Source: an uncultured virus (IMG/VR IMGVR_UViG_3300046007_006189) (Duplodnaviria > Heunggongvirae > Uroviricota > Caudoviricetes). From it: a stretch of 64,000 nucleotides of DNA. Below are positions 6,091 through 33,796 of the stretch, in pieces. The translations under genes and the position numbers were made by a program. Each line of letters opens with the position of its first letter. Position 1 is the stretch's first letter. A model generated the notes under the pieces. The model made no database searches and had not been told where the DNA came from. It saw only the letters and a list, made by a program, of their open reading frames with translations. Where the stretch lies: the IMG/VR virus record IMGVR_UViG_3300046007_006189; one strand, 5' to 3'.

Positions 6091-6098
6091 TATTTATA
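6091..6098 (-). promoter_or_regulatory. T4-type late promoter TATAAATA
   Basis: Exact gp55 consensus on the minus strand, overlapping the upstream stop codon, just 5' of an RBS. Confidence 0.7.
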
Positions 6099-9099: not shown

Positions 9100-9111
9100 T
9101 TATATCTTCCT

Positions 9112-11327: not shown

Positions 11328-11330
11328 AAT

Positions 11331-13714: not shown

Positions 13715-13729
13715 ATTATTTTCCTTGTT

Positions 13730-14722: not shown

Positions 14723-14724
14723 AT

Positions 14725-15951: not shown

Positions 15952-16906
15952 TTATTGATCTTTTAAAAGTTTCTATATTGTAATATGCAGTATCATTAAA
16001 ATTATAATTATTAATATTGATATTATTTAATATATCGTCTATTGACTCTTCGATACCATATATTGATTTATATTTTAAATCTTTTTCTATTTTATTTGTT
16101 GATGCTTTATAATTTCTAACATCTTGAATATTATTAATTATTAATTCTATATTCATTCCCAAACCAATTAAATGATTGTAAATTTTATTTGCTAAATCAC
16201 CAATAGTCAAATTAATACCAGATAAATTGTATATACCTGATACATTTAATTCTGCAAATATTGCTTTTTCGTATCCCTGAATTACATCTCGAATGTCAAT
16301 AAGAGGCCTCCATAAATTTGGATTATTTACCACTATTTTTTTATGAAGAATTGCATCTTTTAACATAGTATTAACAACTAAATCATATCTCATTTTAGGT
16401 GACCATCCACACACAGTGCCTTTTCTGAAAATTATTGGTCGAAACATATCATCTTGTAGAGTCATTATTCCACATTCTGATTGTAATTTTGATATACCAT
16501 ATGGATAGTTTGGTTTTATTGCGCTGTTTTCATTTAATATTTTATTTTTAGTATAACCATAAACACTACAAGAACTTGCATAAATAAATCTTCTGATACC
16601 TGCCATTTTTGTTATATAGGCTATATAAGCAGGCGCAGCTGCATTTTCAATAAAATTTAAATCCGGCCGAAACATTGCCATTGGATCATTTGCCAATCCC
16701 GCAAGAAAGATAACGGAATCAAATCCAATTAAATCCTTAGACGTTAATTTCCATAAATCTTGTTTTTGTTTTGAAATTTCAGGTAAAAGAAAATCTCCAA
16801 ACCAAAATTTATCAATTACCGATACATCATGTCCACTCGTATGTAATTGATTGGACATACGAGTACCAATATATCCAGCACCACCTATTATTAATATTTT
16901 GCTCAT
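15944..16906 (-). CDS. NAD-dependent NDP-sugar epimerase/reductase (SDR)
   Basis: GGAGYIG, LAGLANDP, ASSCSVYG, YGISK, RYDLVVN. Confidence 0.88.
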   Translation of the reverse strand: MSKILIIGGAGYIGTRMSNQLHTSGHDVSVIDKFWFGDFLLPEISKQKQDLWKLTSKDLIGFDSVIFLAGLANDPMAMFRPDLNFIENAAAPAYIAYITKMAGIRRFIYASSCSVYGYTKNKILNENSAIKPNYPYGISKLQSECGIMTLQDDMFRPIIFRKGTVCGWSPKMRYDLVVNTMLKDAILHKKIVVNNPNLWRPLIDIRDVIQGYEKAIFAELNVSGIYNLSGINLTIGDLANKIYNHLIGLGMNIELIINNIQDVRNYKASTNKIEKDLKYKSIYGIEESIDDILNNININNYNFNDTAYYNIETFKRSIND

Positions 16907-17700
16907 AATGTATAAATTAATTTTTTAAATTTTTCAATATTTTTTTGAACATATATTGGTAGATGATCTAATGTTTCTATTGAATGTAATTTTTGTTCAT
17001 CAGTTCTGCCAAAAGGATCTTCTAATTTTTCTATTCTTTCTTTAAAAAACTCTTCTGTTAAATGATTACATGTATCATGACCAAAATTAATAGTTTTTAA
17101 TTTTTGATTTTTTTCATCACCTAATGAACTATAATGCCATCCACCATAACTATGATTTTGACAATTTATTCTTGACCACAATCCATCCCCTATACAACTA
17201 TAATATATATTATTTTTCCCAAGAGATTCAAAAGTTGTAATATATGTTCCATGCCATTCAGTTTTATTAAAATCATGAAGAAAACGAGTATTCATATAAT
17301 AATAATATAAATTCATTGTTACACAAATTGGAAATTTATGATCAATTTTTATATTATTTATAATTTCACTTTTAGGAATTTCGTCTAATGCACCAATCAT
17401 GATTATGTCGTTATTCTTTGCTGCAATTAAGCCAGTTATAATATAATTCCAACAATTTATTTCATTTTGTCTAGTATTCTCGTTAAATAAATTTTCTGGT
17501 ACTTCTAATCTAATAATTTTATGATTGAATTTTTCAAATCTATCCTTATTATTAAGATAATGACATTCTTTTGGTTTATTCTGAAATGATCTTTTAGATT
17601 CGACTAAAACAAAATAATCAACTACATCATTTAATTCATTTAATCGTATTTCTAATAAATCTAATTCATTAAAAAAAGTAAAACAATCATAAACTTTCAT
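16903..17700 (-). CDS. Glycosyltransferase family 17-like (GnT-III-like)
   Basis: YDCFTFFNELDLLEIRL..L..VVDYFVLVES, LDEIP, GGWHYS. Start moved to MKVYDCF (17700), which follows an AAGGA RBS. Confidence 0.8.
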   Translation of the reverse strand: MKVYDCFTFFNELDLLEIRLNELNDVVDYFVLVESKRSFQNKPKECHYLNNKDRFEKFNHKIIRLEVPENLFNENTRQNEINCWNYIITGLIAAKNNDIIMIGALDEIPKSEIINNIKIDHKFPICVTMNLYYYYMNTRFLHDFNKTEWHGTYITTFESLGKNNIYYSCIGDGLWSRINCQNHSYGGWHYSSLGDEKNQKLKTINFGHDTCNHLTEEFFKERIEKLEDPFGRTDEQKLHSIETLDHLPIYVQKNIEKFKKLIYTL

Positions 17701-18308
17701 CAGATATTCCTTTTCAATACAGTAAGACCATTGCAATTTACAAATATTTCATGAATTTTCCAATTACTATTTGATTCTAAAAATTCTTCCAAAGCAGGCA
17801 ATAATCCAATCTTATCTTTGCTATTAGTTCCGATCCTCCCTGAATCTTCGTCGGTATATTTGTAAGATTCTGTGTCATGTAGTATTATGTATTTTTTAAC
17901 TTTATGCGAGTGTAGAGACAATTCAGTCTTAAGTTGAGTATATGAATGTAAGGTATCTATGAAAAGTAAATCAGTTTCTTCTATTTCTATATTTGTAGTG
18001 TCTCCTAAAATAAATTGATAATATACATTATTTAAACGACAATAATTTATTACGCTATTCATTCTATCACCACATTGATGGTCATTCCAATGTAATGTTC
18101 CCGAAATAAGGTTTTGCGGATCAACTATATCAATTGATATGAATTTCTTTGGTTTAGCAACAGCAAATGCAAAAGTTGATACTACCCATCGAACTCCCAT
18201 TTCTGTTATGTGGTTACATTCACTAGCATACCGTTTTAGTGTTGGCAGATGCTCATTTATATCTGATGATAAGTTACATAATTTATTGTAATATTGTTCA
18301 GTATCCAT
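17700..18308 (-). CDS. SAM-dependent methyltransferase (Methyltransf_24-like)
   Basis: SDINEHLPTL, EMGVR, DLLFIDTLH, ILHDT, NGLTVL. Confidence 0.75.
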   Translation of the reverse strand: MDTEQYYNKLCNLSSDINEHLPTLKRYASECNHITEMGVRWVVSTFAFAVAKPKKFISIDIVDPQNLISGTLHWNDHQCGDRMNSVINYCRLNNVYYQFILGDTTNIEIEETDLLFIDTLHSYTQLKTELSLHSHKVKKYIILHDTESYKYTDEDSGRIGTNSKDKIGLLPALEEFLESNSNWKIHEIFVNCNGLTVLKRNI

Positions 18309-18309
18309 A

Positions 18310-18984
18310 TTAAATTTCCTTTATTTGTTGTAACACATCTTTATTTCCATGAAATCCAAATGTATCATTTTTATAATCACTATAATCCTTTGAAAATTTA
18401 TCTGCTACTTCAACTGGTGCAAATTTCACACCATTTGAAATAAAATAATCATAGTTATCATTGCATATAAACGCATCTTCTGGTTTTTGACATTTTGGTA
18501 ATATACTTTGGGATAATTGTAATAATTTTTTAGATCTCATACTAAATCCACCATTACCAACTCTATTTAGTCCATCAAGGCCTTTTTTATTAACAATCTC
18601 TGGTAATACTCCTTTGATTTGACATGGGTATCTTCTAAAATCCCAAGTATGTCCAATATAATCGTATTTTAAAAAATCATCCAACCATAAATGAGGATTT
18701 AATATAAAACCATCCGATTGAACTATTATACAATAATCTGTATTAATATAATTATTCAATTCATGAACTATAAATTCATTATATCCTATCCACGACAATG
18801 GGGATATTGTATGATGTTTAATTTTAAAATTTTCATTATAATTTTTGGGTGAAATTAAAACACATTCTGCAAAATTGATATTTTTAGAACTTATACGCAA
18901 TGCATCATATGCATTTTTTATATTTTCTTCTTTTGTTGTTCCTTCAACACACACTAATGTTACATTTGATAATTTTAAAATCAT
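18310..18984 (-). CDS. DUF5672-like putative glycosyltransferase
   Basis: QSDGFI..W...FL.YDYIG, VGNGGFSMRSKKL, EDxFIC, FGFHG. Confidence 0.8.
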   Translation of the reverse strand: MILKLSNVTLVCVEGTTKEENIKNAYDALRISSKNINFAECVLISPKNYNENFKIKHHTISPLSWIGYNEFIVHELNNYINTDYCIIVQSDGFILNPHLWLDDFLKYDYIGHTWDFRRYPCQIKGVLPEIVNKKGLDGLNRVGNGGFSMRSKKLLQLSQSILPKCQKPEDAFICNDNYDYFISNGVKFAPVEVADKFSKDYSDYKNDTFGFHGNKDVLQQIKEI

Positions 18985-18995
18985 AAATAGTTTCT

Positions 18996-19703
18996 TTATG
19001 TCTGGTTATTTGATGTTAACGTATTTATACTTTTCCAATCAATACCAAATGATATAACGGGTTCGTGTACCGTGGTAGCAATACTCGGAATTGGAGAATA
19101 TAATCTTATATTGTTCTGATAAAGATGTCTAAAAAACAATCTATCCTCTAATCCAAATCTTTTTGCAATTGGAATTATATGAGAAATTAAATTTCTTGAT
19201 ACTGCCCAAGAACAAGTTGTACTTTCGCAGGTTCTCCAATGTTTTCCTTCATAAAAGTAAATAGATTCGTTACCTAGACAGATATCGTCATTACTAGTAT
19301 ATCGATCTGGATGATCATATCCGGTGATTAAACCAAATCTTTCAACTCCCGTATAAATGTGGTCTAAAGCATCTAGTGTATAGAGGTAATCATCTTCTGC
19401 AAAATAGATATTTCCTTCTGATATTTTTTCAGAATAATCAAGTTGAAATTGAAGAGAATTATAATTAGATCTAACTTTGTTATAAATTATGGTATAATTC
19501 AATTTTTCCATTTCATCAGAAAGTATTGATTTATCTCCATCCATTAGTATTATAATTTTTATTTGATCCTTATATTTACAATTTAAATAAGAATTATGTA
19601 AAGATTTAAAACAATTAACTTTAGAAAACCAAGAAGGTCTTCCTACTCTAGTCGGGATATTTTCCAATTCTTTATCACATGCTCGGTACAATATAGTCAA
19701 CAT
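18996..19703 (-). CDS. Putative GT-A fold glycosyltransferase
   Basis: IYFAEDDYL (DxD-like), YDHPDRY, HWRTxxSTT; lies inside the glycan island. Confidence 0.6.
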   Translation of the reverse strand: MLTILYRACDKELENIPTRVGRPSWFSKVNCFKSLHNSYLNCKYKDQIKIIILMDGDKSILSDEMEKLNYTIIYNKVRSNYNSLQFQLDYSEKISEGNIYFAEDDYLYTLDALDHIYTGVERFGLITGYDHPDRYTSNDDICLGNESIYFYEGKHWRTCESTTCSWAVSRNLISHIIPIAKRFGLEDRLFFRHLYQNNIRLYSPIPSIATTVHEPVISFGIDWKSINTLTSNNQT

Positions 19704-19706
19704 AAA

Positions 19707-20201
19707 TTAATTTTTTTCTCCCATTATCATAAATGCATTATTCAAATCGATACCGGATTTAAATACGTTTATATATCCACGATTTAACATATAGTCTTCT
19801 AATATTGATGGAGTGAATATATTGACATGCTTTCGATTGTTCCAAGGACGCCAATATTCTTGACTATAATCTGGAAGATACAAAAACAATACTCCACCTA
19901 TTTTTAATTTTGAATACCAATAATCCATCGCATCTACCCATCGATCAACGTGCTCTAGACAATGTGATGAGAAAATATAATCCAAATCAGTATATGGAAA
20001 ATTTAAAGCATGATAATTTCCTTCCAATACAGGATCAACTAATTTGGCGCCTGGAAAGGCCCACTCTTCTTTCATGCATCCTATATCAACGCCATGTCCA
20101 CTACATACATGTTTAGCAAAAGGTATAGCAAATTGCGAAGCATTTCCTTTACTTTGAAATTTTGGGTATTTTTTATTATTAAATGTTATTGTTTCAAGCA
20201 T
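19707..20201 (-). CDS. SAM-dependent methyltransferase (Methyltransf_11-like)
   Basis: GVDIGC, DYIFSSHCLEH, LKxGGVLFLYLP. Confidence 0.8.
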   Translation of the reverse strand: MLETITFNNKKYPKFQSKGNASQFAIPFAKHVCSGHGVDIGCMKEEWAFPGAKLVDPVLEGNYHALNFPYTDLDYIFSSHCLEHVDRWVDAMDYWYSKLKIGGVLFLYLPDYSQEYWRPWNNRKHVNIFTPSILEDYMLNRGYINVFKSGIDLNNAFMIMGEKN

Positions 20202-20955
20202 GAATATATTTCCACGGAATGCTGAAAAGTTCTTTAATATCTTCTTCTGTATGTGGACTTCTAGTTATACATAGAAAATTTGTTTTATTTTTGAGATTTA
20301 ATTTTTCTAAAATATACATCAATGAAGTATCTACAGTTATTATACTTTTCATATTTTCAAATACTTTACACCAATCAAACAAACTAAATCCGTCGTATAT
20401 TTTCATATGAATAAATTTAGTGTCATTAAAAGTAGAGTAAAACCTAGATAAATTTTTTCTATGAATATCTGGAGGAGTAACATATTGTTCGTTAACAAGA
20501 CAATACTCCTCGCCATCTTTTAATCCCAAAACATCATAAAATAATTCATTTTCTTTTTCGCTATTTCTATTAAAATTAAATGAATGTTTCCAAGCAAGAT
20601 AATTTAATGAACATATTTTATATTTTGCTTGCATAACTTGACGAGTAAATGGTTCAATCATATGAGAAGAATACCCCAAAGGCAAAAATAATACGGTTTC
20701 TTCATCTTTTTTAACTACTGTAATTTGTTTTCTTTCATAAAGCAATTTAAATATATCTTTATGCTCAAAATCTTCATCTGTGCATACAAAAGTAACATTA
20801 GGACCTGTTTTTAAATATTTTGTCAATTCTAGTATTGATCGTGCTACAGGCCAAATTATCTGATAACCATTGTTTTCAAATTGTTTACATATTCCTTGAC
20901 AAAAAAATATATCACCAATTCCTGCTTCTTGTTGTATTAAACATGTTTTTTTCAT
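20194..20955 (-). CDS. Putative GT-B fold glycosyltransferase
   Basis: N-terminal GIGDI motif and C-terminal FDW...I.TVDTS, reminiscent of GT9-like enzymes; island context. Confidence 0.5.
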   Translation of the reverse strand: MKKTCLIQQEAGIGDIFFCQGICKQFENNGYQIIWPVARSILELTKYLKTGPNVTFVCTDEDFEHKDIFKLLYERKQITVVKKDEETVLFLPLGYSSHMIEPFTRQVMQAKYKICSLNYLAWKHSFNFNRNSEKENELFYDVLGLKDGEEYCLVNEQYVTPPDIHRKNLSRFYSTFNDTKFIHMKIYDGFSLFDWCKVFENMKSIITVDTSLMYILEKLNLKNKTNFLCITRSPHTEEDIKELFSIPWKYIHA

Positions 20956-20956
20956 T

Positions 20957-22522
20957 TTAAACCTGTTGAGTTAATGTTTCCTTTTGTGACCAGAGATAAT
21001 GATACATAATCTCTTCAAAATTATATTCACTTCTAATCAATCCAGATGCTAATAATTTATCGCAATAGTCAGAATCCTCACCAAAGTTCTTTTCTGGATA
21101 ACCAATTTGTTTTGCAATATGCGTTTTAACCGGATTTAAATGATTAAGTGGTCTATATTGTCTGCCATTATTTTTAAAATGACCATTATTTTTATTTGCA
21201 TGATTAAACAACATTGCTGCATTATTATCAACATAATACATTCCCCAGAATCCAATACCATCATACATTCCACTATTTAATTTTCTTACTATTTTTGGAA
21301 TATAAGTTAAAGACACTACATCATCGTCATCAATAAAAGAAACATATTCACCTTTTGCTTTATTTAAACATTCGTTTCTTTTTTGACCTACTGTTTTTGT
21401 TCTATTGTCTTTATTTACTATTATTTCTATTCTATGCTTATAACTGACAGGAATAGTTGAATTTAGAATTTCTATAAGACGATTCAATTTATCTTCTCTT
21501 CCATCTACAGTTAATATGCAAATAGACCAAAGAATGTCTTCCTTTTCCATGTGGAATTTGTGTTCCGTCTTTACGATATTTTCTATTCTACTAAAGAATG
21601 ATTTTCCAAACTCTTGAGCTAATTTATAATTCTTTTCAATGTATGGTTTCATTGATTCATAAGTAGTTTCATCAATTTTATTGATTTTTTCTATAAAATC
21701 ATCAAAATTTTCAACAACAATCATTCCACGAATATCAAAAAACTCATCGATATCGGGGGCGCCCCAATAGATAGGAACAGTTTTTGTTAATAAGCAATCA
21801 ATTATTTTTTCTGTAAAATAAGAAGTTTCTTTTGTATTTTCTACTGCGATAGAAAATTGATGATCAAAAAGGTATAATTTATCATCGTCCTTTATGTGTC
21901 CATCATGTAGTGTTGGTGGATCGGAAAACGGGATAAGTTCCTGTGTGTGTGGATCCAAAAATTTCCATGTAGTTGGATGTCTATTGCTGGAATAAAATTT
22001 ATTTGGAATTTTTACTTTGTCTTTATTATTCCAAATTTTTTTCCGTAATTCGTATCCTACTTTTTGTTGTAAGCATGTTGTCAAAAAAGTTACACCAAAT
22101 TTTTTTTCTTTGATTTTATCCAAAATAGATGCATCAAAAGAACCCAAAGAATCTAAATGTGAATTTGATTTTTTATTTAACCATGTTCCTCCATATGGAA
22201 AAAATATAGCATTATCTACATTTTCTATAATATCAGGATGTGATGCTAAAATTAAATCATATTGATGAGCATTATCAATAATAACATCATTTAATTCTCT
22301 GGATTTAGAAGATGCAGGTTCATTGGAACAAATAAAAACTTTATATGCGTCTTTATTTTGAAAATCAATTGTATCTTGTCGTTTATCTTCTTTTCTTTCT
22401 CGAATACGTGGCGGAGTTCCGGACACATGCGTTAGGCCAAATCGAGTAATATGAATCTCACAAGGAAAATCTAAATTAATTTCGTCACAAAAATAATCAC
22501 CATTTTGTACAATTGCTTTCAT
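20957..22522 (-). CDS. Bifunctional glycosyltransferase: GT10-like domain fused to a GT2 domain
   Basis: FSIAVEN...YFTEKIIDC...VPIYWGAP (GT10), then GQKRN...GEYVSFIDDDD...GED (GT2). Confidence 0.85.
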   Translation of the reverse strand: MKAIVQNGDYFCDEINLDFPCEIHITRFGLTHVSGTPPRIRERKEDKRQDTIDFQNKDAYKVFICSNEPASSKSRELNDVIIDNAHQYDLILASHPDIIENVDNAIFFPYGGTWLNKKSNSHLDSLGSFDASILDKIKEKKFGVTFLTTCLQQKVGYELRKKIWNNKDKVKIPNKFYSSNRHPTTWKFLDPHTQELIPFSDPPTLHDGHIKDDDKLYLFDHQFSIAVENTKETSYFTEKIIDCLLTKTVPIYWGAPDIDEFFDIRGMIVVENFDDFIEKINKIDETTYESMKPYIEKNYKLAQEFGKSFFSRIENIVKTEHKFHMEKEDILWSICILTVDGREDKLNRLIEILNSTIPVSYKHRIEIIVNKDNRTKTVGQKRNECLNKAKGEYVSFIDDDDVVSLTYIPKIVRKLNSGMYDGIGFWGMYYVDNNAAMLFNHANKNNGHFKNNGRQYRPLNHLNPVKTHIAKQIGYPEKNFGEDSDYCDKLLASGLIRSEYNFEEIMYHYLWSQKETLTQQV

Positions 22523-22525
22523 AAT

Positions 22526-23194
22526 TTATATCCTATTTAAATTTAATTTAATTTCGCTCTCACTCATACCAACATTAGCAAATTCTTTAAGATTTTCTTC
22601 TTTAGACTTATGATCTGCTATACCCATAGTTATGTATGGTTCCATTCCCTCTGGACATTTACCAGGCCAAACACAATAATTCATCGGTAAACAACCAATC
22701 TTCAATTGATTTGCAACAAACGGTAAGACCTTAAATAATAATATCTCATGATCAAAAAGTTTTTGATTACTGACAACTGCTTCTTGACATTTGTTAATCC
22801 ATAATTTCAAAAAATCAATTACCTTTTGATTATAATTGCAGAATATGGGAGATGCTTTTGGTTGTAAAACATTTATTTGCGAAGGATCGGTCACAAAATA
22901 AGCAAAACCTAAATCTGCTTCATGTTCTAATATACGGTCAAAACCAGTAAGATCTCTATGAATTTGACTATCGATATCAATCCAGACTATTGGTTTTTTC
23001 TTTTCTTCCAACATACTTAGAATGTATTTGGGTTTACGAAGACAATTTAATCTATAATCATTTTCGGTTCTTACTTTTCTAAAATCATGTGGAAGATTTA
23101 ATCTAAAGCATTCTTCTTTTATTCTAAATGCGTGATCGCTGTAGTATGTGTAATCGCCAACATCACAATAAAAGGAAATTAATTCTGTTTTCAT
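22526..23194 (-). CDS. Putative nucleotide-diphospho-sugar transferase (GT-A)
   Basis: NCLRKP..I..ML, VWIDID (DxD), DHE, LPxxYC. Confidence 0.65.
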   Translation of the reverse strand: MKTELISFYCDVGDYTYYSDHAFRIKEECFRLNLPHDFRKVRTENDYRLNCLRKPKYILSMLEEKKKPIVWIDIDSQIHRDLTGFDRILEHEADLGFAYFVTDPSQINVLQPKASPIFCNYNQKVIDFLKLWINKCQEAVVSNQKLFDHEILLFKVLPFVANQLKIGCLPMNYCVWPGKCPEGMEPYITMGIADHKSKEENLKEFANVGMSESEIKLNLNRI

Positions 23195-24018
23195 ATTAGT
23201 TTAAAAAGAATATCATCGGCCAATTCCATATTCTTTACCCTTTCTAGATTATCAATTATTGCCGGAAGTTTACTCTTATAGAGTTCAGATGTCAAGGAAG
23301 AAAAATCAAAATCTTTAGTAAGTTCAATTATTCCTTCCTTATTGAAATAATTACCAATATCAGGAGCACCCCAATAAATAGGAATAGTTCCTGTAGCAAA
23401 ACAATCCGTTATTTTTTCAGTAAAATATGTTTCATAACTATCATTTTCTATAGTCACCGAAAACATATAATCATTCATTGCTTCAGATTTATCAGGCCAA
23501 ACGCCCGCACCGAACCGCTTGGAACCATTTGCACCGCCGTAGACATCAATTGTGTCTGAATGCTTCGATGCAATGGCATGTCTAAGTTTATGTCCAAATG
23601 TTATTATCTTAGGAGAAGCAATCATAGATGTCATTTTGCTCTTTGCGTGAATTTTATGTTCCTTTACCCAAGGAGCATTACTTCCTGCAAATGCAAATTT
23701 TATGTTTGGTGAATACTTGCACCATCTACGGTCTGATACAAAAATTGTATCATATGAGTTTATTAACCTCTCAATATTCTTCTCCCAGATATCTTCGGGA
23801 AACATCCATGCATGAAAAATAGCACGGGATTCGCATACCCATGCTATCTTCTTCTCATTTGGTTTTTTATTATAGGCAACTCCAGACGCAATTGCTTTGT
23901 CTATGAAGACTTTAATATCACAATCGTCTGTAGTCCATTCAAATGTTTTTGGTTTTAGATTTGAACAGGAAGAATATTCAATCGGAAACGGAGCACCAAT
24001 AGCTTGTATTTTTTTCAT
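23191..24018 (-). CDS. Glycosyltransferase family 10-like (alpha-1,3-fucosyltransferase fold)
   Basis: YMFSVTIEN...YFTEKITDCFATGTIPIYWGAP. Confidence 0.85.
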   Translation of the reverse strand: MKKIQAIGAPFPIEYSSCSNLKPKTFEWTTDDCDIKVFIDKAIASGVAYNKKPNEKKIAWVCESRAIFHAWMFPEDIWEKNIERLINSYDTIFVSDRRWCKYSPNIKFAFAGSNAPWVKEHKIHAKSKMTSMIASPKIITFGHKLRHAIASKHSDTIDVYGGANGSKRFGAGVWPDKSEAMNDYMFSVTIENDSYETYFTEKITDCFATGTIPIYWGAPDIGNYFNKEGIIELTKDFDFSSLTSELYKSKLPAIIDNLERVKNMELADDILFKLI

Positions 24019-27562: not shown

Positions 27563-27883
27563 TTATAATTCTACCCAATGTAGACCATTTGTATCCCGGA
27601 TTAATGTATAAGTTATGCCTGTGTCGGGATTATACCATCGATCTCCGATAGTTTCAGTAATAGGTTCATCAGTTTGATTAAAAAATCTATTAGGATTAAT
27701 ATCACCTATTCGTTCCCATCCGCTATCTTTTGATAGCGGATTTAATCCTATAATAGTCTTTGTTGCAGCATAATAAGTGCCATCAAAATCGACAGTATCA
27801 CCAATAGTATACTTGATGATTTTGCCATTAGGATCGTATTTTTTATAAACTCCTAAGAATTTTAAATTATCTGTTTTGTTCAT
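27563..27883 (-). CDS. Small protein with a CBM5/12-like motif and a fibre-type GDRW motif
   Basis: YTIGDTVDFDGTYY...P....GW, then P.....GDRWYN..TG..Y....D....HWVE. Confidence 0.55.
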   Translation of the reverse strand: MNKTDNLKFLGVYKKYDPNGKIIKYTIGDTVDFDGTYYAATKTIIGLNPLSKDSGWERIGDINPNRFFNQTDEPITETIGDRWYNPDTGITYTLIRDTNGLHWVEL

Positions 27884-28995
27884 TTTAGCGTTCTGAGCAA
27901 AAGAGTATGTGTATTAATTCTACCAGTAGGACTAGAATCTTTGGTCTTCTGTGTCTTCCAGTAATTATTTATACTACGAATTCCCTCAGTTTTTGCCTTA
28001 GTCATAAATTCAATTGGTTTTTTCATCTTCTTCTCGACAGATTCAGAAGAAAATCCAATAAGAGTTGACCCCTTGACACTAATTCCCGGCCCAGTTTCAT
28101 CCGACTTAAAAATGCAAGCCTTGCCGGTTTTTACATTGAAAGTAATAAGAGTAGAACAACCAACAATAGATTCAGGCAATATAGATTCAATTCCACTTGA
28201 AGTATCTTTGGTTAGATACTTAAGTTTCTTGATTACCTGTTCAGGCTTCTTCTTTCTCTTCTTTCTTGGTTTTCTATTGCTCTTTGCTATTGTGATTCTG
28301 ACTGTCAAATGATCACATATTGACTTATAGAAATCATGCATCTTTTGTACTTGCTTCTTGCTAAGAAAGGAATATGCTTCTTTCAATTGAGCGTCTTTGC
28401 CTTCTACAACCAAGGCAAATTCACTCAACCCCCGCTTAAAGCATTCAAGTAAGAATTCGCAATGCATTGCACTTGGTGCGATTTCTGTCAACCACGATTC
28501 AATATCAAATGTCTTATAATTTGGCATTTTGCCGCGAATATAAGATTCGTATTCATCGATCTTTTGCTCTAAATATGCACCAAGTTCATATGATTGTTGC
28601 CGTACTCGTTCCCGAACAGGCACTACTGGTACATTTGTATCCTGAATGCTTTTGCCATTTTTAATAAGAGTAGCAATTCCTTGATCAATATTTGTCTGTA
28701 CTTTTACAGGCAAAATACAATGAGATAAGGCAGTTTCGCATCTACCACCAATGCCTCTAAAAGTAAAATCATCGGTTGGAACTTTCGAAACATATTCCAA
28801 TCCTTCGATTTTAAATTTCTTCATGTATTCTATTACACTATTTTTATAATCTCTATCGGTAAACTTGGTATTGTACCAATTTAATGCCAAAGCAATAGAC
28901 CAATATACACGATCTTCGTCTTTAAAATCTTCAGGTTTCCAATGCTTCCAGTTTGGTTGCTTACCGTAAAAGATTTCTTCTGTTTGCGATTTCAT
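27880..28995 (-). CDS. Conserved T4-like hypothetical protein
   Basis: 371 aa; D.QL.EAY, R..K.K, IVG...L..FN.K, ..VKGST..GF, GRIN...LL pattern as recalled from T4-like phage hypotheticals; ATGA-coupled to its neighbours. Confidence 0.6.
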   Translation of the reverse strand: MKSQTEEIFYGKQPNWKHWKPEDFKDEDRVYWSIALALNWYNTKFTDRDYKNSVIEYMKKFKIEGLEYVSKVPTDDFTFRGIGGRCETALSHCILPVKVQTNIDQGIATLIKNGKSIQDTNVPVVPVRERVRQQSYELGAYLEQKIDEYESYIRGKMPNYKTFDIESWLTEIAPSAMHCEFLLECFKRGLSEFALVVEGKDAQLKEAYSFLSKKQVQKMHDFYKSICDHLTVRITIAKSNRKPRKKRKKKPEQVIKKLKYLTKDTSSGIESILPESIVGCSTLITFNVKTGKACIFKSDETGPGISVKGSTLIGFSSESVEKKMKKPIEFMTKAKTEGIRSINNYWKTQKTKDSSPTGRINTHTLLLRTLK

Positions 28996-30569
28996 GGCTT
29001 ATAGTATACAAAAACTGGTTCGTATTTCAAATAATTTCCATTCACTTTACAAAAGTTCTTACATTTTGGTTTGCCATCTTCGTCTAACCGATTCTGCCCA
29101 GGCATACCTTCCATTGCCATTTTTAATGTTTGAACATATTTCATTCCAAGACTTTCTAATATGTCTCTTGAATCTTTTTCTAATGTTAGATATTTGCCAG
29201 AAATTTGAATATCGGCAATATTCCATAAAAGGTATCTATTATTTCTCAAATACTCAACACAGGTTTCTAGTGTTGGTCGAAGGAATCCATCTCTCCAAGA
29301 ATCATAACTGGAAAATTTCTTATAAGATTGATTTTCGTTTTCCGAATATGCTTCTCTATTGAAATACGGAGGAGAGGTAAAGATCAAATCAACCGATCCC
29401 TTATACTTCTGAAATTCAACATCATCCTTTATTGTTTCCGAACCATGTTTAAAAATTTCGTAAGTATTGGTGGTTGAGAAGAACGAGTTTCCTCTATAAG
29501 TTCTAGTATTATAGAAATTAGCAAGATCAGCGTACATGCCGCCATTCCCAACATGAGAAGGGAAATTATCCAAGTTAGGATCAGTCCCGACATAGTGAAT
29601 ATTTCTATTGTCATTGACAGACATTGCACCAAGAATGCGGCCGCCCCAGCCAGAAGAAGGGTCATAAACCACAATTTGGTTTTGTGTGTAAAAAGATTCC
29701 GTAAATTTTTCATAAAGATACCTTGCCGTTAAAGGAGGAAAATTAACTGCGGGTTGAATATAACCTATTCTGAAACTAGGAAAACATTTGGGAAATACTT
29801 TGTATCCCTTTTCATATACTCTAATTCTAAAAATCTTGTCATCGGGAATATTCTCTGTATCAAATGTTGAATAGTGCCGATACGATAATTTGGGTTTCCA
29901 ATTCAAAAATTGCTGTTTAGTTAGTGAAAGTATTTTTGATTGTTCTATTTGATAATAACCCGTATTCATACCATCTTCATCGTCATGTTGATCTAAAATA
30001 AAATCATGATCTTTGAAAATGGAGGGATTGTTGAAATATGCCTCCATCCACTCTTCTCCACTACCAACAGAAACAATAGCGTATTTGCTATCGTTTTTTA
30101 TGGCAGAACAAGCAAAAGTATAAAGAGAGTCACGGCGAATATGCCGTCGAGCACCCTTTATCATTTTTGTTAAATACTTGTCATTTGCAAATAAATCGTA
30201 AATAGAATAACCAGTATCGTTTTCGCTGTAGTTTATTCTAGTTTTGTACATATTAGAAAACCATTGATCTGCTTCCGCACCTAAACGAGATTTATTGATA
30301 ATTACATCTTTCTCGCCAGTCAATTCATCTACAAATTCAAAAGTATGTACAGGATATCCGGTGAGTTTATTAAACTCTTCGATAATATCATCTTCATTTT
30401 TACCAGTTCTAGGAGGACAATTAGTTGCATCCCATGCCTCAAGAACAACTTTACGCATATCCTTTACCCACTCTTCGAATTCAGAGTCATTCATAGAAAC
30501 AATGTCTTCAAAGAAAACATTAATTTTATGATTTAAAAGATAATCGTTTCTTTCGTAAAAATGTTTCAT
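28992..30569 (-). CDS. DNA amino-methyltransferase-like protein (N6-A/N4-C)
   Basis: SAM-binding VYDPSSGWGGR precedes catalytic FTSPPYF. Start moved to MKHFYE (30569), giving an ATGA overlap with the upstream stop. Confidence 0.85.
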   Translation of the reverse strand: MKHFYERNDYLLNHKINVFFEDIVSMNDSEFEEWVKDMRKVVLEAWDATNCPPRTGKNEDDIIEEFNKLTGYPVHTFEFVDELTGEKDVIINKSRLGAEADQWFSNMYKTRINYSENDTGYSIYDLFANDKYLTKMIKGARRHIRRDSLYTFACSAIKNDSKYAIVSVGSGEEWMEAYFNNPSIFKDHDFILDQHDDEDGMNTGYYQIEQSKILSLTKQQFLNWKPKLSYRHYSTFDTENIPDDKIFRIRVYEKGYKVFPKCFPSFRIGYIQPAVNFPPLTARYLYEKFTESFYTQNQIVVYDPSSGWGGRILGAMSVNDNRNIHYVGTDPNLDNFPSHVGNGGMYADLANFYNTRTYRGNSFFSTTNTYEIFKHGSETIKDDVEFQKYKGSVDLIFTSPPYFNREAYSENENQSYKKFSSYDSWRDGFLRPTLETCVEYLRNNRYLLWNIADIQISGKYLTLEKDSRDILESLGMKYVQTLKMAMEGMPGQNRLDEDGKPKCKNFCKVNGNYLKYEPVFVYYKP

Positions 30570-31297
30570 GCACCAACATTCCAAAATAAAGCATCAGGGG
30601 ATGCGTGTTCTTTTATGAACTTCCATGCTTTTGCGTCATAAGTGGGAACAGAGGGAAAGGGAGGAGCATCAGCAGGATCGACTGCATCGAAGAAAGGAAT
30701 GTCACACTTGTACATTTTTGCTCTACCCAGTTCCCTCTGTCCCATTTTATGACCAACAGAAACACAATTAAATTCTGCTTCGGGCCATGCTAACTGCAAC
30801 CCTCTAGTAAGAGTTCCACTAGATCCAACAGTCCATACTTCTTTTGGTTGAATCGGTAGAGTCTTTGCCAATTCGCAAATTTCAGATATTACTTCAGGAC
30901 AATCAAATCCAATAGGAAATAGTTTTCTATTGTCGGTGTCTGAAGCAACATAATCTCTTGCTCTCTTTTGTGTTACACTAAGCATACCGTTGTCTACTCC
31001 GTGTATTGTAGCACCATAATTCATTGCTTTCAACTGGTAAGGATGAAGATTCTCCGGTTTTCTTCTTGCCATGAAAAGAATACATTTCTTATTCAAATGC
31101 TGACATACTCTTGCCAATGCAATTTGAGCATATCCTGTTGCTGGCGATGATCCATATACCATCTCAGATTGGGGCGAATTTTTAATTAGATTCTGAACAA
31201 ATCTAGTTTTAGAACCGCCTTCAATCAAATCATCACGAACAACATAAAACTGATCGTGCTTTTCTATAACGGGTTTTGGATTTATCTCGTCGCTCAT
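30566..31297 (-). CDS. PLP-dependent enzyme, fold type II (TrpB/cysteine synthase/ACC deaminase-like)
   Basis: VVRDD...GGSKxR (Schiff-base Lys), GYAQIALA, VGSSGTLTRGL phosphate loop, YDAKAW, LFWNVG. Confidence 0.8.
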   Translation of the reverse strand: MSDEINPKPVIEKHDQFYVVRDDLIEGGSKTRFVQNLIKNSPQSEMVYGSSPATGYAQIALARVCQHLNKKCILFMARRKPENLHPYQLKAMNYGATIHGVDNGMLSVTQKRARDYVASDTDNRKLFPIGFDCPEVISEICELAKTLPIQPKEVWTVGSSGTLTRGLQLAWPEAEFNCVSVGHKMGQRELGRAKMYKCDIPFFDAVDPADAPPFPSVPTYDAKAWKFIKEHASPDALFWNVGA

Positions 31298-33009
31298 GTG
31301 AGTTTGCTGAAATTATTTTTCTTTTCAAAACCAATAACATGTTGAAACTTATCAACTAATTGATCTGATTTATGACTAATAACAAAAATATTAGATTTAT
31401 CACTTACTGCATTCAATAACTTCATTAGTTCATCCATACCCAAGGCATCAAGAGAAGAATCAAAAACTTCATCAAGAATCAAAATATTACAATTTACGCT
31501 ATTCTTGGTTCTGGCAATTTCTCTCCATGCCAACAATAGTGCCAGATCAATTCTCATCTTTTCACCTTCGCTGAAATTCATATAACTGAACTCATCTCTA
31601 TGCCTACTTTTAATCTTTTCATTAAAATCTTCATCAAGGGTAAACTGTGCAAAAAAGTCCATAGATGACAAAAATTTATTAATGTACTTATTCATAAATG
31701 GCAAATAGTACTTAATAATTTTTGCTTTAACCCCTGAATCTTTTAATAGCACATGTGCATGTTCGTGATATAAAAGTTCATCTTTATTCTCTTCCTTTTC
31801 CTTTTCAAAAACAGACAAAGAAGATTGATACTGATTTAACTTTTGTTTCTGTGAATCAAGATGACTCGTAGAAGTCGTCATATCTGACAACTCCTTATTG
31901 AGTGTCGAAAGATACTTTTCAGCGTTCTTAATAGATGTCTTTTTCTGTACAATTTCCAAATTTCTATCTTGTATTTCTTTAGTTATTTTAGAAATTTCAG
32001 ATAATCTATTAGATACATTATTGATATTACCATCCAAACTAACTATTGCTTTTTCGTATTCAGTTTTCTTTTCATTTCTTTTAGATACTTCTGTTTTCTT
32101 GGTTTCTGAATCTATAGTCTGATTGCACGAAGGACAAGAAACATTTTCTTCAAAGAATGAAATATCTTTTTCTATATTCTTAAGATTTATATGAATTTTT
32201 GTTTTTAGTTTTTCAAGTTCATTTAATGATTTATTAGATGATGTCTGATCTGCAATTTGCTTGACTAGTTCAGTAACTCCGCTCTCTAAATCGACAACTT
32301 CACCTCGTAGTGTCTGTATGTCATTTGAAATATCGTTTACTTTGTCTTGCACAAGTTTAATATCTTCATTACTTTTCGCTTCCATACTAGTAATGTGTTG
32401 TTGTTGCAGAACAATTTTTTGTTTTTCCAAATCTATCTTTGTTGATATATCTCGAAGTGTTTCTTTTATCTGTAGAATCTTACCCTTAAGTAAAATATTC
32501 ATTGTACTAAAAACATTAATATCAAGAATATTTTCAATTACAGCACGACGATCCGATGCGGACAATTGCATAAAAGGAACAAAGGATGAACTACCCAATA
32601 TCACAACTTGAGTAAAGGTCTTATAATTCATCTTTATAATTTGATCTTCAAGAACTTCTTGATAATCAAGACTTTTTGCATCCTGATTAACTAGAACACC
32701 ATTCTTATGAATTTCAAATAACTTAGGATTCAACCCACGACGAACTAAGTATTCATCAGAACCTTTAGTAAATTCAATTTCAACTAAACAATTCTTATCG
32801 TTTACAGAATTTACTAATTGAGGAATATTGATCTTTCTGAAAGGTTTTCCAAATAGAGCAAATGTAATGGAATCCAGAAAAGCAAATGATTTTCCGCTAC
32901 CATTATTACCACAAATAAGAGTGGTTGGATTTTTGTCAAGAATCAGTTCGGTAAAATTATTACCAAACGATCCGAAATTTTTAAACCGTACCTTCTTGAA
33001 CTTTATCAT
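31294..33009 (-). CDS. g46: Recombination endonuclease subunit gp46 (Rad50/SbcC-like)
   Basis: GNNGSGKS, coiled coil with CPSC zinc hook, FSEGEKMRIDLA, LDEVFD, ISH. Confidence 0.97.
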   Translation of the reverse strand: MIKFKKVRFKNFGSFGNNFTELILDKNPTTLICGNNGSGKSFAFLDSITFALFGKPFRKINIPQLVNSVNDKNCLVEIEFTKGSDEYLVRRGLNPKLFEIHKNGVLVNQDAKSLDYQEVLEDQIIKMNYKTFTQVVILGSSSFVPFMQLSASDRRAVIENILDINVFSTMNILLKGKILQIKETLRDISTKIDLEKQKIVLQQQHITSMEAKSNEDIKLVQDKVNDISNDIQTLRGEVVDLESGVTELVKQIADQTSSNKSLNELEKLKTKIHINLKNIEKDISFFEENVSCPSCNQTIDSETKKTEVSKRNEKKTEYEKAIVSLDGNINNVSNRLSEISKITKEIQDRNLEIVQKKTSIKNAEKYLSTLNKELSDMTTSTSHLDSQKQKLNQYQSSLSVFEKEKEENKDELLYHEHAHVLLKDSGVKAKIIKYYLPFMNKYINKFLSSMDFFAQFTLDEDFNEKIKSRHRDEFSYMNFSEGEKMRIDLALLLAWREIARTKNSVNCNILILDEVFDSSLDALGMDELMKLLNAVSDKSNIFVISHKSDQLVDKFQHVIGFEKKNNFSKLT

Positions 33010-33796
33010 TTAGAATTTTCTCCGGCACTACCATAGAACGGAAAAGCAAATCTTCAGCAGTTTTTTCTTCAGTTGGTTTGGATTCCGGTAAATCTTCCTT
33101 TACCAATTCTATTGGTTCATTCTTCTTTCCACACGAAGAACAACCACCACTAACCGAATCTCTTAAATTCTTACCACTTGGTGGCCACCCTTCAGGAGTG
33201 CCACGTTCAAATGTCATCTTAGATTCCATTTTAAGGCGCATAGAATATCCTGCACCATAATACCATGTAATTTCTTCACCTTGTTTGATATCAGTCAATG
33301 CATGAAGTGTATAATATTTCAATGCCGTATCTTGTGTCCAGTATCCATTTGGTTGTTCAGAATGATTATATACCATTCCATTTCCAAGAACTAATGCCAT
33401 AGTATTGCCATACTTTTCGCATATAGAACAACCACACCCCCAAGCAAAAGCATATCGATTCAATACCCAATCCTTGTTTCCTTTGAACGTACTGTCCAAC
33501 AAAACAACCGGACATTCCTCAATAATGTCCCCGGATTTGATGTCCTCGGATGCAAAAACACCTAATCCACTAATTTTTGATTTTCCTACATAAACTTTTG
33601 GTTGGATGAACTTAGTTTTTATTGCAAATTTATTTTCTTTTGCAATATATGCGGAAACATAGTAACTATGCGATTTTCTTGCCGGAAATCCATATTCATC
33701 GTACTCAGGAACCATATCATCGTTTCCTGGCAAATAAATGGACGGATCAAAAACTTTTGGTCTATCTTCGTTTGATTGCATTTCATTTGTGTTCAT
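32981..33796 (-). CDS. SET-domain protein (putative protein-lysine methyltransferase)
   Basis: SKISGLGVFA..DI..G.IIE, YNHS..PN and A..DI..GEEIT..YG, the canonical SET motifs; extra CxCxxC and CxxC. Confidence 0.88.
   Translation of the reverse strand: MNTNEMQSNEDRPKVFDPSIYLPGNDDMVPEYDEYGFPARKSHSYYVSAYIAKENKFAIKTKFIQPKVYVGKSKISGLGVFASEDIKSGDIIEECPVVLLDSTFKGNKDWVLNRYAFAWGCGCSICEKYGNTMALVLGNGMVYNHSEQPNGYWTQDTALKYYTLHALTDIKQGEEITWYYGAGYSMRLKMESKMTFERGTPEGWPPSGKNLRDSVSGGCSSCGKKNEPIELVKEDLPESKPTEEKTAEDLLFRSMVVPEKILNDKVQEGTV

What the first reader, a model, noticed from the sequence alone, without database searches (positions are those of the whole stretch)
28992..31297. PLP enzyme translationally coupled to a large DNA amino-methyltransferase: possible new DNA hypermodification pathway
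Seen in the sequence: g46, a fold-type-II PLP enzyme and an SPPY-type MTase (~525 aa, with a long N-terminal region) are linked by ATGA overlaps. Established: phage PLP enzymes such as ViI gp226 and M6 gp52 decarboxylate amino-acid adducts on DNA during thymidine hypermodification. Their usual partners (5-hmU DNA kinase, amino-acid:DNA transferase) are not in this window; the neighbour here is an MTase-fold protein. Inference: the MTase-fold enzyme may install a SAM-derived group larger than methyl (e.g. 3-amino-3-carboxypropyl) on an exocyclic amine, which the PLP enzyme then decarboxylates. Alternatively both serve a pathway encoded elsewhere in the genome.
Basis: partly seen in the sequence, partly recalled or inferred. 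Interest (0 to 1): 0.75.

Follow-up and report, generated by a model that had tools for sequence, protein, structure and literature searches.

The report
Phage PLP enzyme–methyltransferase DNA-modification pair
An uncultured marine T4-like phage carries a vitamin-B6 enzyme, related to one proven to trim amino acids hanging on phage DNA, locked to a methyltransferase-type enzyme instead of the usual partner enzymes, which points to a widespread DNA decoration whose chemistry nobody has yet determined.

Summary
Genes gp46, a 243-aa PLP enzyme, a 525-aa SPPY methyltransferase-fold protein (MT) and two further genes are joined by ATGA overlaps.

- **PLP enzyme:** it is a full-length homologue of Pseudomonas phage M6 gp52, a proven PLP decarboxylase of DNA-bound amino acids. 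It belongs to a separate clade.
- **Linkage:** 72 of 83 distinct viral PLP genes have the MT family in the same locus. The other 11 loci have 2.5 kb or less of downstream sequence. Of 45 longer proteins carrying the PLP domain, 38 also carry the methylase domain.
- **Canonical partners:** amino-acid:DNA transferase and 5-hmdU kinase are absent from the window and from two complete cultured phage genomes. M6 was the positive control.
- **Reading:** an undescribed DNA-base hypermodification. My leading model, untested, is transfer of the amino-carboxypropyl group of SAM to an exocyclic amine, followed by decarboxylation.
- **Against it:** close PLP-less relatives of the MT share its motifs.
- **Prior record:** the scan noted this pair on other DNA at least ten times. 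Seven literature searches found no paper on it.

The parts
30566..31297 (-). PLP enzyme, 243 aa. Fold-type II, M6 gp52 family (phrog_7093), MT-linked clade.
31208..31210 (-). Codon of Lys30, the predicted Schiff-base lysine. It aligns with K36 of M6 gp52.
   Evidence: K36 is named in PMC8989533
30815..30823 (-). Ser159-Ser160-Gly161, the phosphate-binding loop of the PLP site. Invariant in 26 sequences.
28992..30569 (-). Methyltransferase-fold protein (MT), 525 aa.
29784..30569 (-). MT N-terminal region, residues 1-262. Acidic (pI 5.3), alpha+beta, no family match. Conserved in the T4-like lineages and in two Flavobacteriaceae MAG loci.
28992..29783 (-). MT catalytic domain, residues 263-525. 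Class I Rossmann fold with motif order I then IV.
29637..29672 (-). Motif I (SAM-binding), VVYDPSSGWGGR.
29343..29381 (-). Motif IV, FTSPPYFNREAYS (the SPPY catalytic motif).
31294..33009 (-). gp46-type recombination endonuclease subunit. It is the upstream neighbour, joined by an ATGA overlap, and is context rather than part of the module.
27880..28995 (-). p371 (phrog_11903), the downstream neighbour joined by an ATGA overlap. Relatives occur in phages that lack the pair, so it is probably not part of the module.

Best explanation
The PLP enzyme and the MT form the two-gene core of a post-replicative DNA-base hypermodification pathway that differs from the known thymidine pathways.

Proposed order:
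1. Inferred: the MT flips out a base and uses SAM to alkylate an exocyclic amino group (N6 of A, N4 of C or N2 of G). The group transferred is not the methyl group but the 3-amino-3-carboxypropyl (acp) part of SAM, with methylthioadenosine released.
2. Inferred by homology to M6 gp52: the PLP enzyme forms a Schiff base with the free alpha-amine of the DNA-bound amino acid and removes CO2. This leaves a cationic 3-aminopropyl side chain.
3. In other phages, extra genes in or beside the pair would tailor that side chain. Examples are an AspH-like oxygenase, glutamine-synthetase-like and carbamoyltransferase-like enzymes, and small methyltransferases.

Shown here: the homology, the intact catalytic motifs, the conserved linkage and fusions, and the absence of the canonical partner enzymes.

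Not shown: the substrate, the group transferred, the reaction type and the target base.

The confidence given is for the specific acp-then-decarboxylation chemistry. I put the broader claim, that the pair is a functional nucleic-acid modification module independent of 5-hmdU chemistry, at about 0.8.
For: Homology of the PLP enzyme:
- BLASTP against M6 gp52 gives E=5e-15 and 28% identity over the full length, including the C-terminal PFP..YD.KAW...FWN.G signature, with Lys30 opposite gp52 K36.
- hhalign probability is 98%. Both proteins fall in phrog_7093.
- gp52 and ViI gp226 were shown with pure enzymes to decarboxylate amino acids tethered to DNA, and they need a free primary amine (PMC8989533, passages).

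Linkage:
- Among 83 distinct PLP genes in fetched viral loci, 72 have an MT-family ORF on the same strand. Of these, 55 lie within 150 nt and 17 lie 0.2-6.3 kb away.
- In the other 11 loci the downstream sequence is 2.5 kb or less.
- The linkage survives rearrangement. The MT lies 1.75 kb upstream in L027-L032 and 1.8 kb downstream in L034-L040.
- It also holds at 34-38% PLP identity in MAG loci.

Fusions:
- 38 of 45 longer proteins with this PLP domain also carry PF01555. Six carry an AspH-like oxygenase domain.
- In R6L gp1 the PLP domain is nested between motif I and motif IV of a ParB-methylase.
- P0243 joins MT, oxygenase and PLP in one chain, and its MT has the same motifs as the window's.

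Asymmetry: the MT family occurs without the PLP enzyme. No testable locus had the PLP enzyme without the MT. This fits the MT making the substrate of the PLP enzyme. A methylated amine is not an amino acid, and SAM is the only MT-fold ligand that carries one (inference).

Missing partners:
- No ADDT (PF18724), 5-hmdU kinase domains or thymidylate-synthase homologue in 55 window ORFs.
- PF18724 and PF18723 are absent from the R6L and Mae-JY30 complete genomes and from the large contigs, while M6 rings.

Inserts: genes found between PLP and MT elsewhere are amine- or side-chain-tailoring types, namely Gln-synthetase-like, OTCase-like and a class I methyltransferase.

Precedent (recalled, not tested): MT-fold or SAM-binding enzymes transfer acp to RNA bases (Tyw2/Taw2, Tsr3, TapT).
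Against: - No chemistry was tested.
- The MT catalytic domain is about 30% identical to stand-alone methylases of Staphylococcus, Mammaliicoccus, Vibrio and Bacteroides phages that have no PLP gene. Aligned examples from Staphylococcus phage Alsa_4 and a Vibrio phage share its GWG.R/GFGGR and TSPPYF..E.YS motifs (for the lack of PLP). The motifs are therefore not a signature of acp transfer.
- The nearest solved structures are ordinary methyltransferases: TrmN 3tma Z 15.1 and aTrm11 5e72 Z 14.9, tied within about 1-2 Z units with many class I enzymes. No acp transferase appears in the lists shown. This is inconclusive.
- The MT-linked PLP clade lies far from the characterised decarboxylases. 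The separating branch is 2.7 substitutions per site. The profile scores are 47 bits for gp52 against 218-434 bits for the MT-linked members scored. The reaction type may therefore differ.
- Most fold-type-II enzymes perform beta-replacement or elimination (recalled).
- The two proven substrates are beta-substituted alanines. An acp adduct is one carbon longer.
- One locus, L033, has 5.4 kb upstream and 2.5 kb downstream of the PLP gene without an MT.
- The T4-like virus records searched are only 24-84% complete by CheckV, and the window's own genome is not held. An unrecognised installing enzyme elsewhere cannot be excluded.
- PF18748 was searched without M6 as a control.
Confidence: 0.38

Rival explanations
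1. The MT is a plain DNA amino-methyltransferase making m6A, m4C or m2G. The PLP enzyme then works on an amino-acid adduct made in some other way. Either an unrecognised transferase installs it, or the PLP enzyme installs it itself by beta-replacement, as in TrpB/CysK chemistry with serine or O-acetylserine, on a base that the MT flips out and activates. The MT may also methylate the resulting amine.
For: - PLP-less relatives of the MT share all of its motifs.
- The structural neighbours are methyltransferases.
- The PLP fold is that of beta-replacement enzymes.
- The proven gp52/gp226 substrates are beta-substituted alanines, which is what a beta-replacement would produce.
- The nested fusion in R6L gp1 places the PLP domain inside the MT fold.
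Against: - No candidate installing enzyme is conserved beside the pair. The genes between PLP and MT vary from locus to locus.
- The characterised members of this PLP family are decarboxylases, not synthases.
- The SAM-binding motif is invariant, so SAM is still needed.
- The dependence of PLP on MT is unexplained if the MT only adds a methyl group.
Confidence: 0.27
2. The product is the same but the order is reversed. The PLP enzyme decarboxylates free SAM. The MT-fold protein then acts like a spermidine synthase and transfers the aminopropyl group of decarboxylated SAM to a DNA base.
For: - The nested PLP domain sits between motifs I and IV of the MT in R6L gp1; by my own reading of the alignment, not tested on a structure, this is the loop next to the SAM-binding strands.
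- SAM has the free alpha-amine that the PLP enzyme needs (inference).
- Aminopropyl transferases have the class I MT fold (recalled).
Against: - The characterised relatives act on DNA-bound substrates, not on free metabolites.
- Known SAM decarboxylases use a pyruvoyl group, not PLP (recalled).
- In most phages the two proteins are separate.
Confidence: 0.1
3. The pair modifies RNA (tRNA or mRNA ends) or a small molecule rather than DNA.
For: - The best structural matches of the MT are tRNA m2G methyltransferases: TrmN, Trm11 and Trm14.
This was not checked here.
- The N-terminal region of the MT is acidic and does not look like a DNA-binding domain.
Against: - The fusions found here are to ParB DNA-binding domains (PF02195, phrog_620/15396) and to DNA methylase families. 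No cap-enzyme domain appears among the 45 long proteins.
- The genes sit in the replication and recombination module between gp46 and RNase H/gp45.
- The proven relatives of the PLP enzyme act on DNA.
- The Z-scores of the tRNA enzymes are nearly tied with those of unrelated class I methyltransferases.
Confidence: 0.1
4. The two genes are unrelated neighbours packed together by ordinary phage operon compaction.
For: ATGA overlaps join five gene pairs in this array, including core genes with unrelated roles.
Against: - 72 of 83 loci keep the pair through rearrangements.
- 38 of 45 long forms are fusions with the methylase domain.
- The linkage persists at 34% identity in MAG loci.
Confidence: 0.02

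Closest known systems
Pseudomonas phage M6 gp52 and Salmonella phage ViI gp226: PLP-dependent decarboxylases of thymidine hypermodification (PMC8989533; phrog_7093 and phrog_3650)
   Same: - Short fold-type-II PLP enzyme with the Schiff-base lysine at the same position.
- Shared C-terminal signature.
- Same PHROG as gp52.
- The same structural template class (1j0a) that the paper used for gp226.
   Different: - Only 28% identical to gp52, and in a separate clade on a long branch.
- Never found here with the amino-acid:DNA transferase or the 5-hmdU kinase. It is found with an SPPY methyltransferase-fold protein instead.
- Substrate and reaction are untested.
Erythrobacter phage vB_EliS_R6L gp1 (and ZS04): ParB-methylase with a nested PLP domain. 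Microcystis phage Mae-JY30: a ParB / methylase / PLP gene trio.
   Same: - Same PLP clade (41% and 40% identity).
- MT with motif I before an S(C)PPY motif IV.
- No ADDT or HMUDK in these complete genomes.
   Different: - The window has two separate, translationally coupled genes.
- Its MT has an unrelated 262-aa N-terminal region in place of ParB.
- The MT profile built from the window's family does not reach R6L gp1 and reaches the Mae-JY30 MT only at E=2e-5.
Stand-alone phage DNA methylases of the same catalytic family: Staphylococcus phage Alsa_4 CDS0265, and Vibrio phage 2.058.O NVP2058O_092, annotated as an N-4 cytosine methylase
   Same: About 30% identity over residues 259-513, with shared GWG.R/GFGGR and TSPPYF..E.YS motifs.
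   Different: - They have no PLP partner and lack the window's N-terminal region.
- Their products are untested as far as I know (recalled).
(D/N)PPY exocyclic-amine RNA methyltransferases TrmN, Trm11 and Trm14 (PDB 3tma, 5e72, 3tlj)
   Same: Best structural matches of the MT model, Z 14.2-15.1 and Foldseek E=3e-7. Class I fold with the PPY motif.
   Different: 10-18% identity. The Z-scores are nearly tied with unrelated class I methyltransferases. Those enzymes act on tRNA, with THUMP domains.
SAM-dependent 3-amino-3-carboxypropyl transferases of RNA: Tyw2/Taw2, Tsr3, TapT (recalled from the literature)
   Same: This is a working analogy only: SAM used as donor of the acp group to a nucleobase. 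Tyw2 has a methyltransferase fold.
   Different: No sequence or structural match was seen here. No acp modification of DNA turned up in the literature searches.

Membership tests
M6 gp52 / ViI gp226 DNA-adduct PLP decarboxylases (phrog_7093) | Full-length sequence homology to gp52 | tested here: met
   BLASTP E=5e-15. hhalign probability 98%. phrog_7093 E=2.1e-43 for the window protein against 2.2e-159 for gp52.
M6 gp52 / ViI gp226 DNA-adduct PLP decarboxylases (phrog_7093) | Fold-type-II PLP fold with the Schiff-base lysine and the phosphate loop | tested here: met
   Model pLDDT 89.4. Foldseek hits are fold-type-II enzymes. K30 aligns with gp52 K36. K30 and S159-S160-G161 are invariant in 26 sequences.
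M6 gp52 / ViI gp226 DNA-adduct PLP decarboxylases (phrog_7093) | Genomic association with 5-hmdU DNA kinase, amino-acid:DNA transferase and dUMP hydroxymethylase | tested here: not met
   None found in 55 window ORFs. PF18724 and PF18723 are absent from the R6L and Mae-JY30 complete genomes; PF18724 is also absent above its cut-off from the other records, and PF18723 from G001 and G002, while M6 rings. Two sub-threshold PF18724 hits were seen: G008 at E=0.002, and G019 at E=3e-4 with six stops inside.
M6 gp52 / ViI gp226 DNA-adduct PLP decarboxylases (phrog_7093) | Decarboxylation of an amino acid tethered to a DNA base | not testable with these tools
   Needs an enzyme assay or nucleoside mass spectrometry.
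N6/N4 DNA amino-methyltransferases (PF01555; (D/N/S)PPY) | Catalytic motif IV (S/D/N)PP(Y/F) | tested here: met
   FTSPPYF at residues 397-403, invariant in 24 sequences.
N6/N4 DNA amino-methyltransferases (PF01555; (D/N/S)PPY) | SAM-binding motif I and the class I Rossmann fold | tested here: met
   D303, S305, G307, W308, G309 and D330 are invariant. Model pLDDT 85.8. Class I methyltransferase matches.
N6/N4 DNA amino-methyltransferases (PF01555; (D/N/S)PPY) | Pfam score above the gathering cut-off | tested here: met
   27.4 bits against 26.7, which is marginal and covers residues 398-499 only. All 24 of 24 family members match at E up to 1, the best at 4.9e-9.
N6/N4 DNA amino-methyltransferases (PF01555; (D/N/S)PPY) | Transfer of a methyl group to an exocyclic amine of DNA | not testable with these tools
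   Needs analysis of the by-product (SAH or MTA) and of the product.
ParB-methylase with nested PLP domain (R6L gp1 type, phrog_498) | N-terminal ParB domain, with the PLP domain inside the methylase chain | tested here: not met
   The window MT has no ParB match. PLP is a separate gene overlapping by ATGA. The PLP domains do belong to one clade.
SAM-dependent acp transferases (Tyw2/Taw2, Tsr3, TapT) | Sequence or structural kinship | tested here: inconclusive
   None appears in the rows shown by Foldseek or VIA-align. Families that are not listed are not thereby excluded.

The most novel reading that the evidence does not exclude
A methyltransferase-fold enzyme common in ocean phages transfers the amino-carboxypropyl part of SAM to an exocyclic amine of a DNA base, and not the methyl group. 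A gp52-like PLP enzyme then decarboxylates the adduct to an N-(3-aminopropyl) base. This would be the first SAM-derived non-methyl alkylation of DNA amines. It would also be a polyamine-like hypermodification made directly on ordinary A, C or G, with no 5-hmdU precursor. Optional hydroxylation, glutamylation, carbamoylation or glycosylation would follow in other phages.
Probability: 0.35. Interest if true: 0.9.

Novelty: new variant of a known kind. Interest (0 to 1): 0.7.

Why it matters
All DNA hypermodifications known to use a gp52-type PLP enzyme start from 5-hydroxymethyl-uracil made before replication. They also need a DNA kinase and an amino-acid:DNA transferase (PMC8989533, passages).

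Here the same PLP enzyme family is tied to a methyltransferase-fold protein, and the canonical enzymes are absent. The installing chemistry must therefore be different, and the target is probably a different base.

The pair is abundant:
- at least 1222 protein clusters for the PLP enzyme;
- at least 1853 clusters for the MT;
- at least 593 viral loci.

An unknown DNA mark may thus be common in marine phage DNA. That would bear on restriction evasion, on sequencing and nanopore base-calling of viromes, and on new SAM and PLP enzymology.

Three cultured phages carry the pair: R6L, ZS04 and Mae-JY30. The question can therefore be tested directly by nucleoside mass spectrometry.

Tried and rejected
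- **Whole genome:** not held for the window. I used related contigs and records through handles instead.
- **Complex prediction:** tried for the MT catalytic domain plus the PLP enzyme. No statement on binding rests on it.
- **PDB sequence search:** only weak TrpB matches for the PLP enzyme (E=0.003) and nothing for the MT.
- **NCBIfam:** nothing useful.
- **MT N-terminal region:** Pfam on all 24 family members at E up to 1 gave only scattered weak hits. ESM Atlas gave only viral hypothetical clusters at 0.80, within the range of chance. The structure searches were dominated by the C-terminal domain.
- **Isoelectric points:** PLP family median 7.35, M6 gp52 6.45, MT 5.6. These do not discriminate DNA-acting enzymes.
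- **p371 as a third component:** rejected. Relatives occur in Caulobacter phage Cr30, Stenotrophomonas phage DLP_6, the PA5oct group and others, none of which is among the three phage records that hold the PLP gene. p371 is also absent from the rearranged loci.
- **Tree building:** treekit finished the build, but the script stopped at the display step because ERS-1 (L125) had not passed the profile search. The tree reported is a FastTree run with a midpoint root and only two sequences of the canonical clade.
- **ERS-1:** it was left out of the tree for that reason.
- **Rhizobium phage RHph_I65:** I did not check whether it is linked to ADDT.
- **Literature:** seven searches found no paper on a PLP-methylase pair, on acp in DNA or on aminopropyl DNA bases. 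Subscription journals are not covered.
- **Acp transferases and spermidine synthases:** not among the listed structural matches. This is inconclusive.

Full report
**What is there**

The window is part of an uncultured T4-like myophage. It encodes gp23, gp20, a clamp loader, gp45, RNase H, UvsW, UvsY and the gp46/gp47 pair. DNA similarity is only to gp46 of cyanophages, pelagiphages and Methylophilales phages, at 65-68%.

On the minus strand a tight array reads gp47, SET-domain protein, gp46, PLP enzyme (30566..31297, 243 aa), MT (28992..30569, 525 aa), p371, p106, RNase H, gp45. ATGA overlaps stand at gp47/SET, gp46/PLP, PLP/MT, MT/p371 and p371/p106. G+C across the pair (0.345-0.348) equals that of its neighbours.

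**The PLP enzyme**

- Pfam PALP is sub-threshold (24.8 bits against 35). PHROGs place the protein in phrog_7093 (E=2.1e-43).
- An AlphaFold model built on 26 sequences has pLDDT 89.4. It matches fold-type-II PLP enzymes at about 14% identity: D-cysteine desulfhydrase, TrpB, CysK, serine and threonine dehydratases, and ACC-deaminase homologue 1j0a with TMq 0.77.
- Lys30 and Ser159-Ser160-Gly161 are invariant, so the protein looks like a working enzyme.

The passages I read of Lee et al., NAR 2021 (PMC8989533) say three things. M6 gp52 and ViI gp226 are PLP enzymes that were modelled on TrpB-like templates, 1j0a among them. K36 of gp52 is the predicted Schiff-base lysine. The pure enzymes decarboxylate C-alpha-glycinyl-thymidine and O-serinyl-thymidine in DNA, but only if a primary amine is free.

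I fetched M6 gp52 and compared it with the window protein:
- BLASTP gives E=5e-15 and 28% identity over the whole length, with Lys30 opposite K36 and a shared C-terminal signature.
- hhalign gives 98% probability.
- gp52 is the core of phrog_7093 (E=2.2e-159).

**The MT**

- PF01555 is just above its cut-off and covers residues 398-499 only.
- An alignment of 24 relatives shows an invariant motif I (D303, S305, G307, W308, G309, R311), an acidic D330, and an invariant motif IV, FTSPPYFN.E.YS.
- The order is motif I and then motif IV, about 95 residues later.
- The model (pLDDT 85.8) has a class I Rossmann fold. The best matches are the exocyclic-amine tRNA methyltransferases TrmN, Trm11 and Trm14 (Z 14.2-15.1). 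These are nearly tied with many unrelated class I enzymes at Z about 13.
- The target atom is probably an exocyclic amine. The base (A, C or G) is open.
- Residues 1-262 are conserved within the lineage but match nothing.

**Is the pairing meaningful?**

A first scan of viral contigs gave 41 loci. A second scan with the alignment gave at least 593, of which 80 were kept. I built local profiles of the MT from A2 and searched all ORFs of the loci. I collapsed the loci to 83 distinct PLP genes by the last 500 nt of the gene.

| Result | Count of 83 |
|---|---|
| MT-family ORF within 150 nt, same strand | 55 (54 downstream, 1 upstream) |
| MT-family ORF 208-6327 nt away | 17 |
| No MT-family ORF found | 11 |

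Of the 11 without an MT, seven have under 1 kb of downstream sequence, three have 1-2 kb, and one (L033) has 2.5 kb. L033 also has 5.4 kb upstream with no MT, and it is the only possible exception. These loci are the best-scoring relatives (54% identity or more, plus the 41-55% set). They are not a random sample of the family.

The linkage survives rearrangement:
- In L027-L032 the MT lies upstream, separated from the PLP gene by an AspH-like 2OG oxygenase gene and a YunG-like gene.
- In L034-L040 a shorter MT lies downstream, after genes for dUTPase and an S-adenosylmethionine-lyase-family protein.
- In the collection of cellular genomes only 7 loci appeared, all from MAGs. Five have an MT match in the locus, right after the PLP gene in L133 and L134 and about 0.7 kb downstream in L130 and L131; in L135 the match is a weak one on the upstream ORF. 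The other two contigs are about 2 kb long.

**Fusions**

Among 45 longer proteins that contain this PLP domain, 38 also carry PF01555 and six carry the AspH-like domain PF05118.

- P0243 (1081 aa) reads MT, an unassigned middle part, oxygenase and PLP. Its MT has the same motif spellings as the window's.
- In the phage database the PLP protein hits only three records. In Erythrobacter phages R6L and ZS04 the hit lies under a gene annotated as a DNA methylase. In Microcystis phage Mae-JY30 there are three adjacent genes, ParB, MT and PLP.
- In R6L, the one I translated and scanned, the PLP domain (residues about 405-622) is nested in a ParB-methylase between motif I and an SCPPY motif IV.
- These are three independent architectures joining the same two enzyme families.
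- The ParB fusions argue for DNA as the substrate.

**The canonical partners are missing**

Pfam names the M6 partners as ADDT (PF18724), HMUDK_HMUD1 (PF18748), HMUDK_hel (PF18723) and a thymidylate-synthase homologue. None of these appears in 55 scanned window ORFs. Five ORFs under 125 aa were not scanned.

With M6 as a ringing control, PF18724 and PF18723 are absent from the complete R6L and Mae-JY30 genomes and from a 156.7-kb relative of the window's phage. PF18724 is absent above its cut-off from 25 further records, all of them carriers fetched through the PLP scans. Two weak sub-threshold hits were seen (G008, G019). The T4-like records are 24-84% complete. PF18748 was searched only without the control.

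**Clade structure**

The profile built from A1 scores MT-linked proteins at 218-434 bits in the two runs where scores were read. It scores M6 gp52 at 47 bits and the Rhizobium phage RHph_I65 protein at 19. In a FastTree tree with a midpoint root, all MT-linked and fused forms fall on one side. M6 and RHph_I65 fall on the other, separated by a branch of 2.7 substitutions per site with support 1.0. Only two canonical sequences were included.

**Mechanism**

The PLP family needs an alpha-amino acid with a free amine tethered to a base. In this clade the only constant companion is a SAM-binding, base-amine-directed transferase. The dependence is also one-sided. The MT family exists without the PLP enzyme in Staphylococcus, Mammaliicoccus, Vibrio and Bacteroides phages. 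The PLP enzyme was not seen without the MT.

The simplest reading is that the MT makes the substrate of the PLP enzyme. A methyl group cannot serve as that substrate. The acp part of SAM can. Decarboxylation would then leave an aminopropyl chain.

The variable genes found in or beside the pair fit tailoring of such a chain: an AspH-like hydroxylase, Gln-synthetase-like and carbamoyltransferase-like enzymes, a small methyltransferase and a PAPS-reductase-like protein. Some of them may simply be metabolic passengers.

Several points count against the specific chemistry:
- The PLP-less relatives of the MT share its motifs.
- The structural neighbours are methyltransferases.
- The PLP clade is distant from the proven decarboxylases.
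- The proven substrates are beta-substituted alanines, whereas an acp adduct is one carbon longer.

I therefore hold the acp-then-decarboxylation model at 0.38. The broader claim of a 5-hmdU-independent nucleic-acid modification module I hold at about 0.8.

**Novelty**

Seven searches of the paper library found no description of the pair, of acp on DNA or of aminopropyl DNA bases.

Within this scan the pair has been noted on other DNA at least ten times, in phages and in giant viruses. I re-tested the central claims independently. I did not test that, and I keep RNA as a rival.

Noticed in passing
window 32981-33796 (-): A 271-aa SET-domain protein (PF00856, E=4.5e-14) sits between gp47 and gp46. 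It overlaps gp47 by ATGA and gp46 by 29 nt. It is conserved in most close relatives but missing in L010 and L011. A SAM-dependent lysine-methyltransferase fold inside the recombination module.
   Followed up: partly
window about 9100-24000 (-): A low-G+C island (0.26-0.32, against 0.34-0.42 elsewhere). It holds GT2, GT17 and GT10-like glycosyltransferases, three NAD epimerase/dehydratases, a sugar C-methyltransferase, a PfkB kinase, a cupin and DUF5672. It lies next to an 856-aa collagen-repeat protein (6094-8664).
   Followed up: no
window 53667-62387 (-): A 2906-aa protein with many PKD and Ig-like repeats, probably a fibre or decoration protein.
   Followed up: no
L036 6704-7901 (also L034-L040): In the 47%-identity lineage, a dUTPase gene and a gene of the S-adenosylmethionine lyase family (PF23780, E=1.2e-10) lie between the PLP gene and its MT, and a family B DNA polymerase follows.
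   Followed up: no
L073 8642-9775, L098 6762-7892, L075 8711-9694, L111 8666-9415, L117 8439-9011: Genes inserted directly after the PLP gene in other phages: glutamine-synthetase-like (two loci), aspartate/ornithine-carbamoyltransferase-like, PAPS-reductase-like, and a small class I methyltransferase.
   Followed up: partly
L115 8677-11888: Two tandem paralogues of the full-length MT follow one PLP gene.
   Followed up: no
P0250 (1129 aa): A ParB-methylase-PLP fusion interrupted by an intein-type LAGLIDADG element (PF14528) in the C-terminal part of the methylase, shortly before its end.
   Followed up: no
L134 6001-8267: The pair sits in a 443-kb contig of a Flavobacteriaceae MAG at 34% PLP identity. 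The MT there is split into two ORFs, either by a frameshift or as a decaying prophage copy.
   Followed up: no
window 27880-28995 (-): p371 (phrog_11903) has a lysine/arginine-rich linker in its middle. It has relatives in T4-like and jumbo phages of Caulobacter, Sinorhizobium, Stenotrophomonas and Pseudomonas. Its function is unknown.
   Followed up: partly
G008 contig 108756-108989: A sub-threshold ADDT-like match (E=0.002, 14 bits) inside a 584-aa ORF, about 9 kb upstream of the PLP gene of L108. It is probably noise.
   Followed up: no
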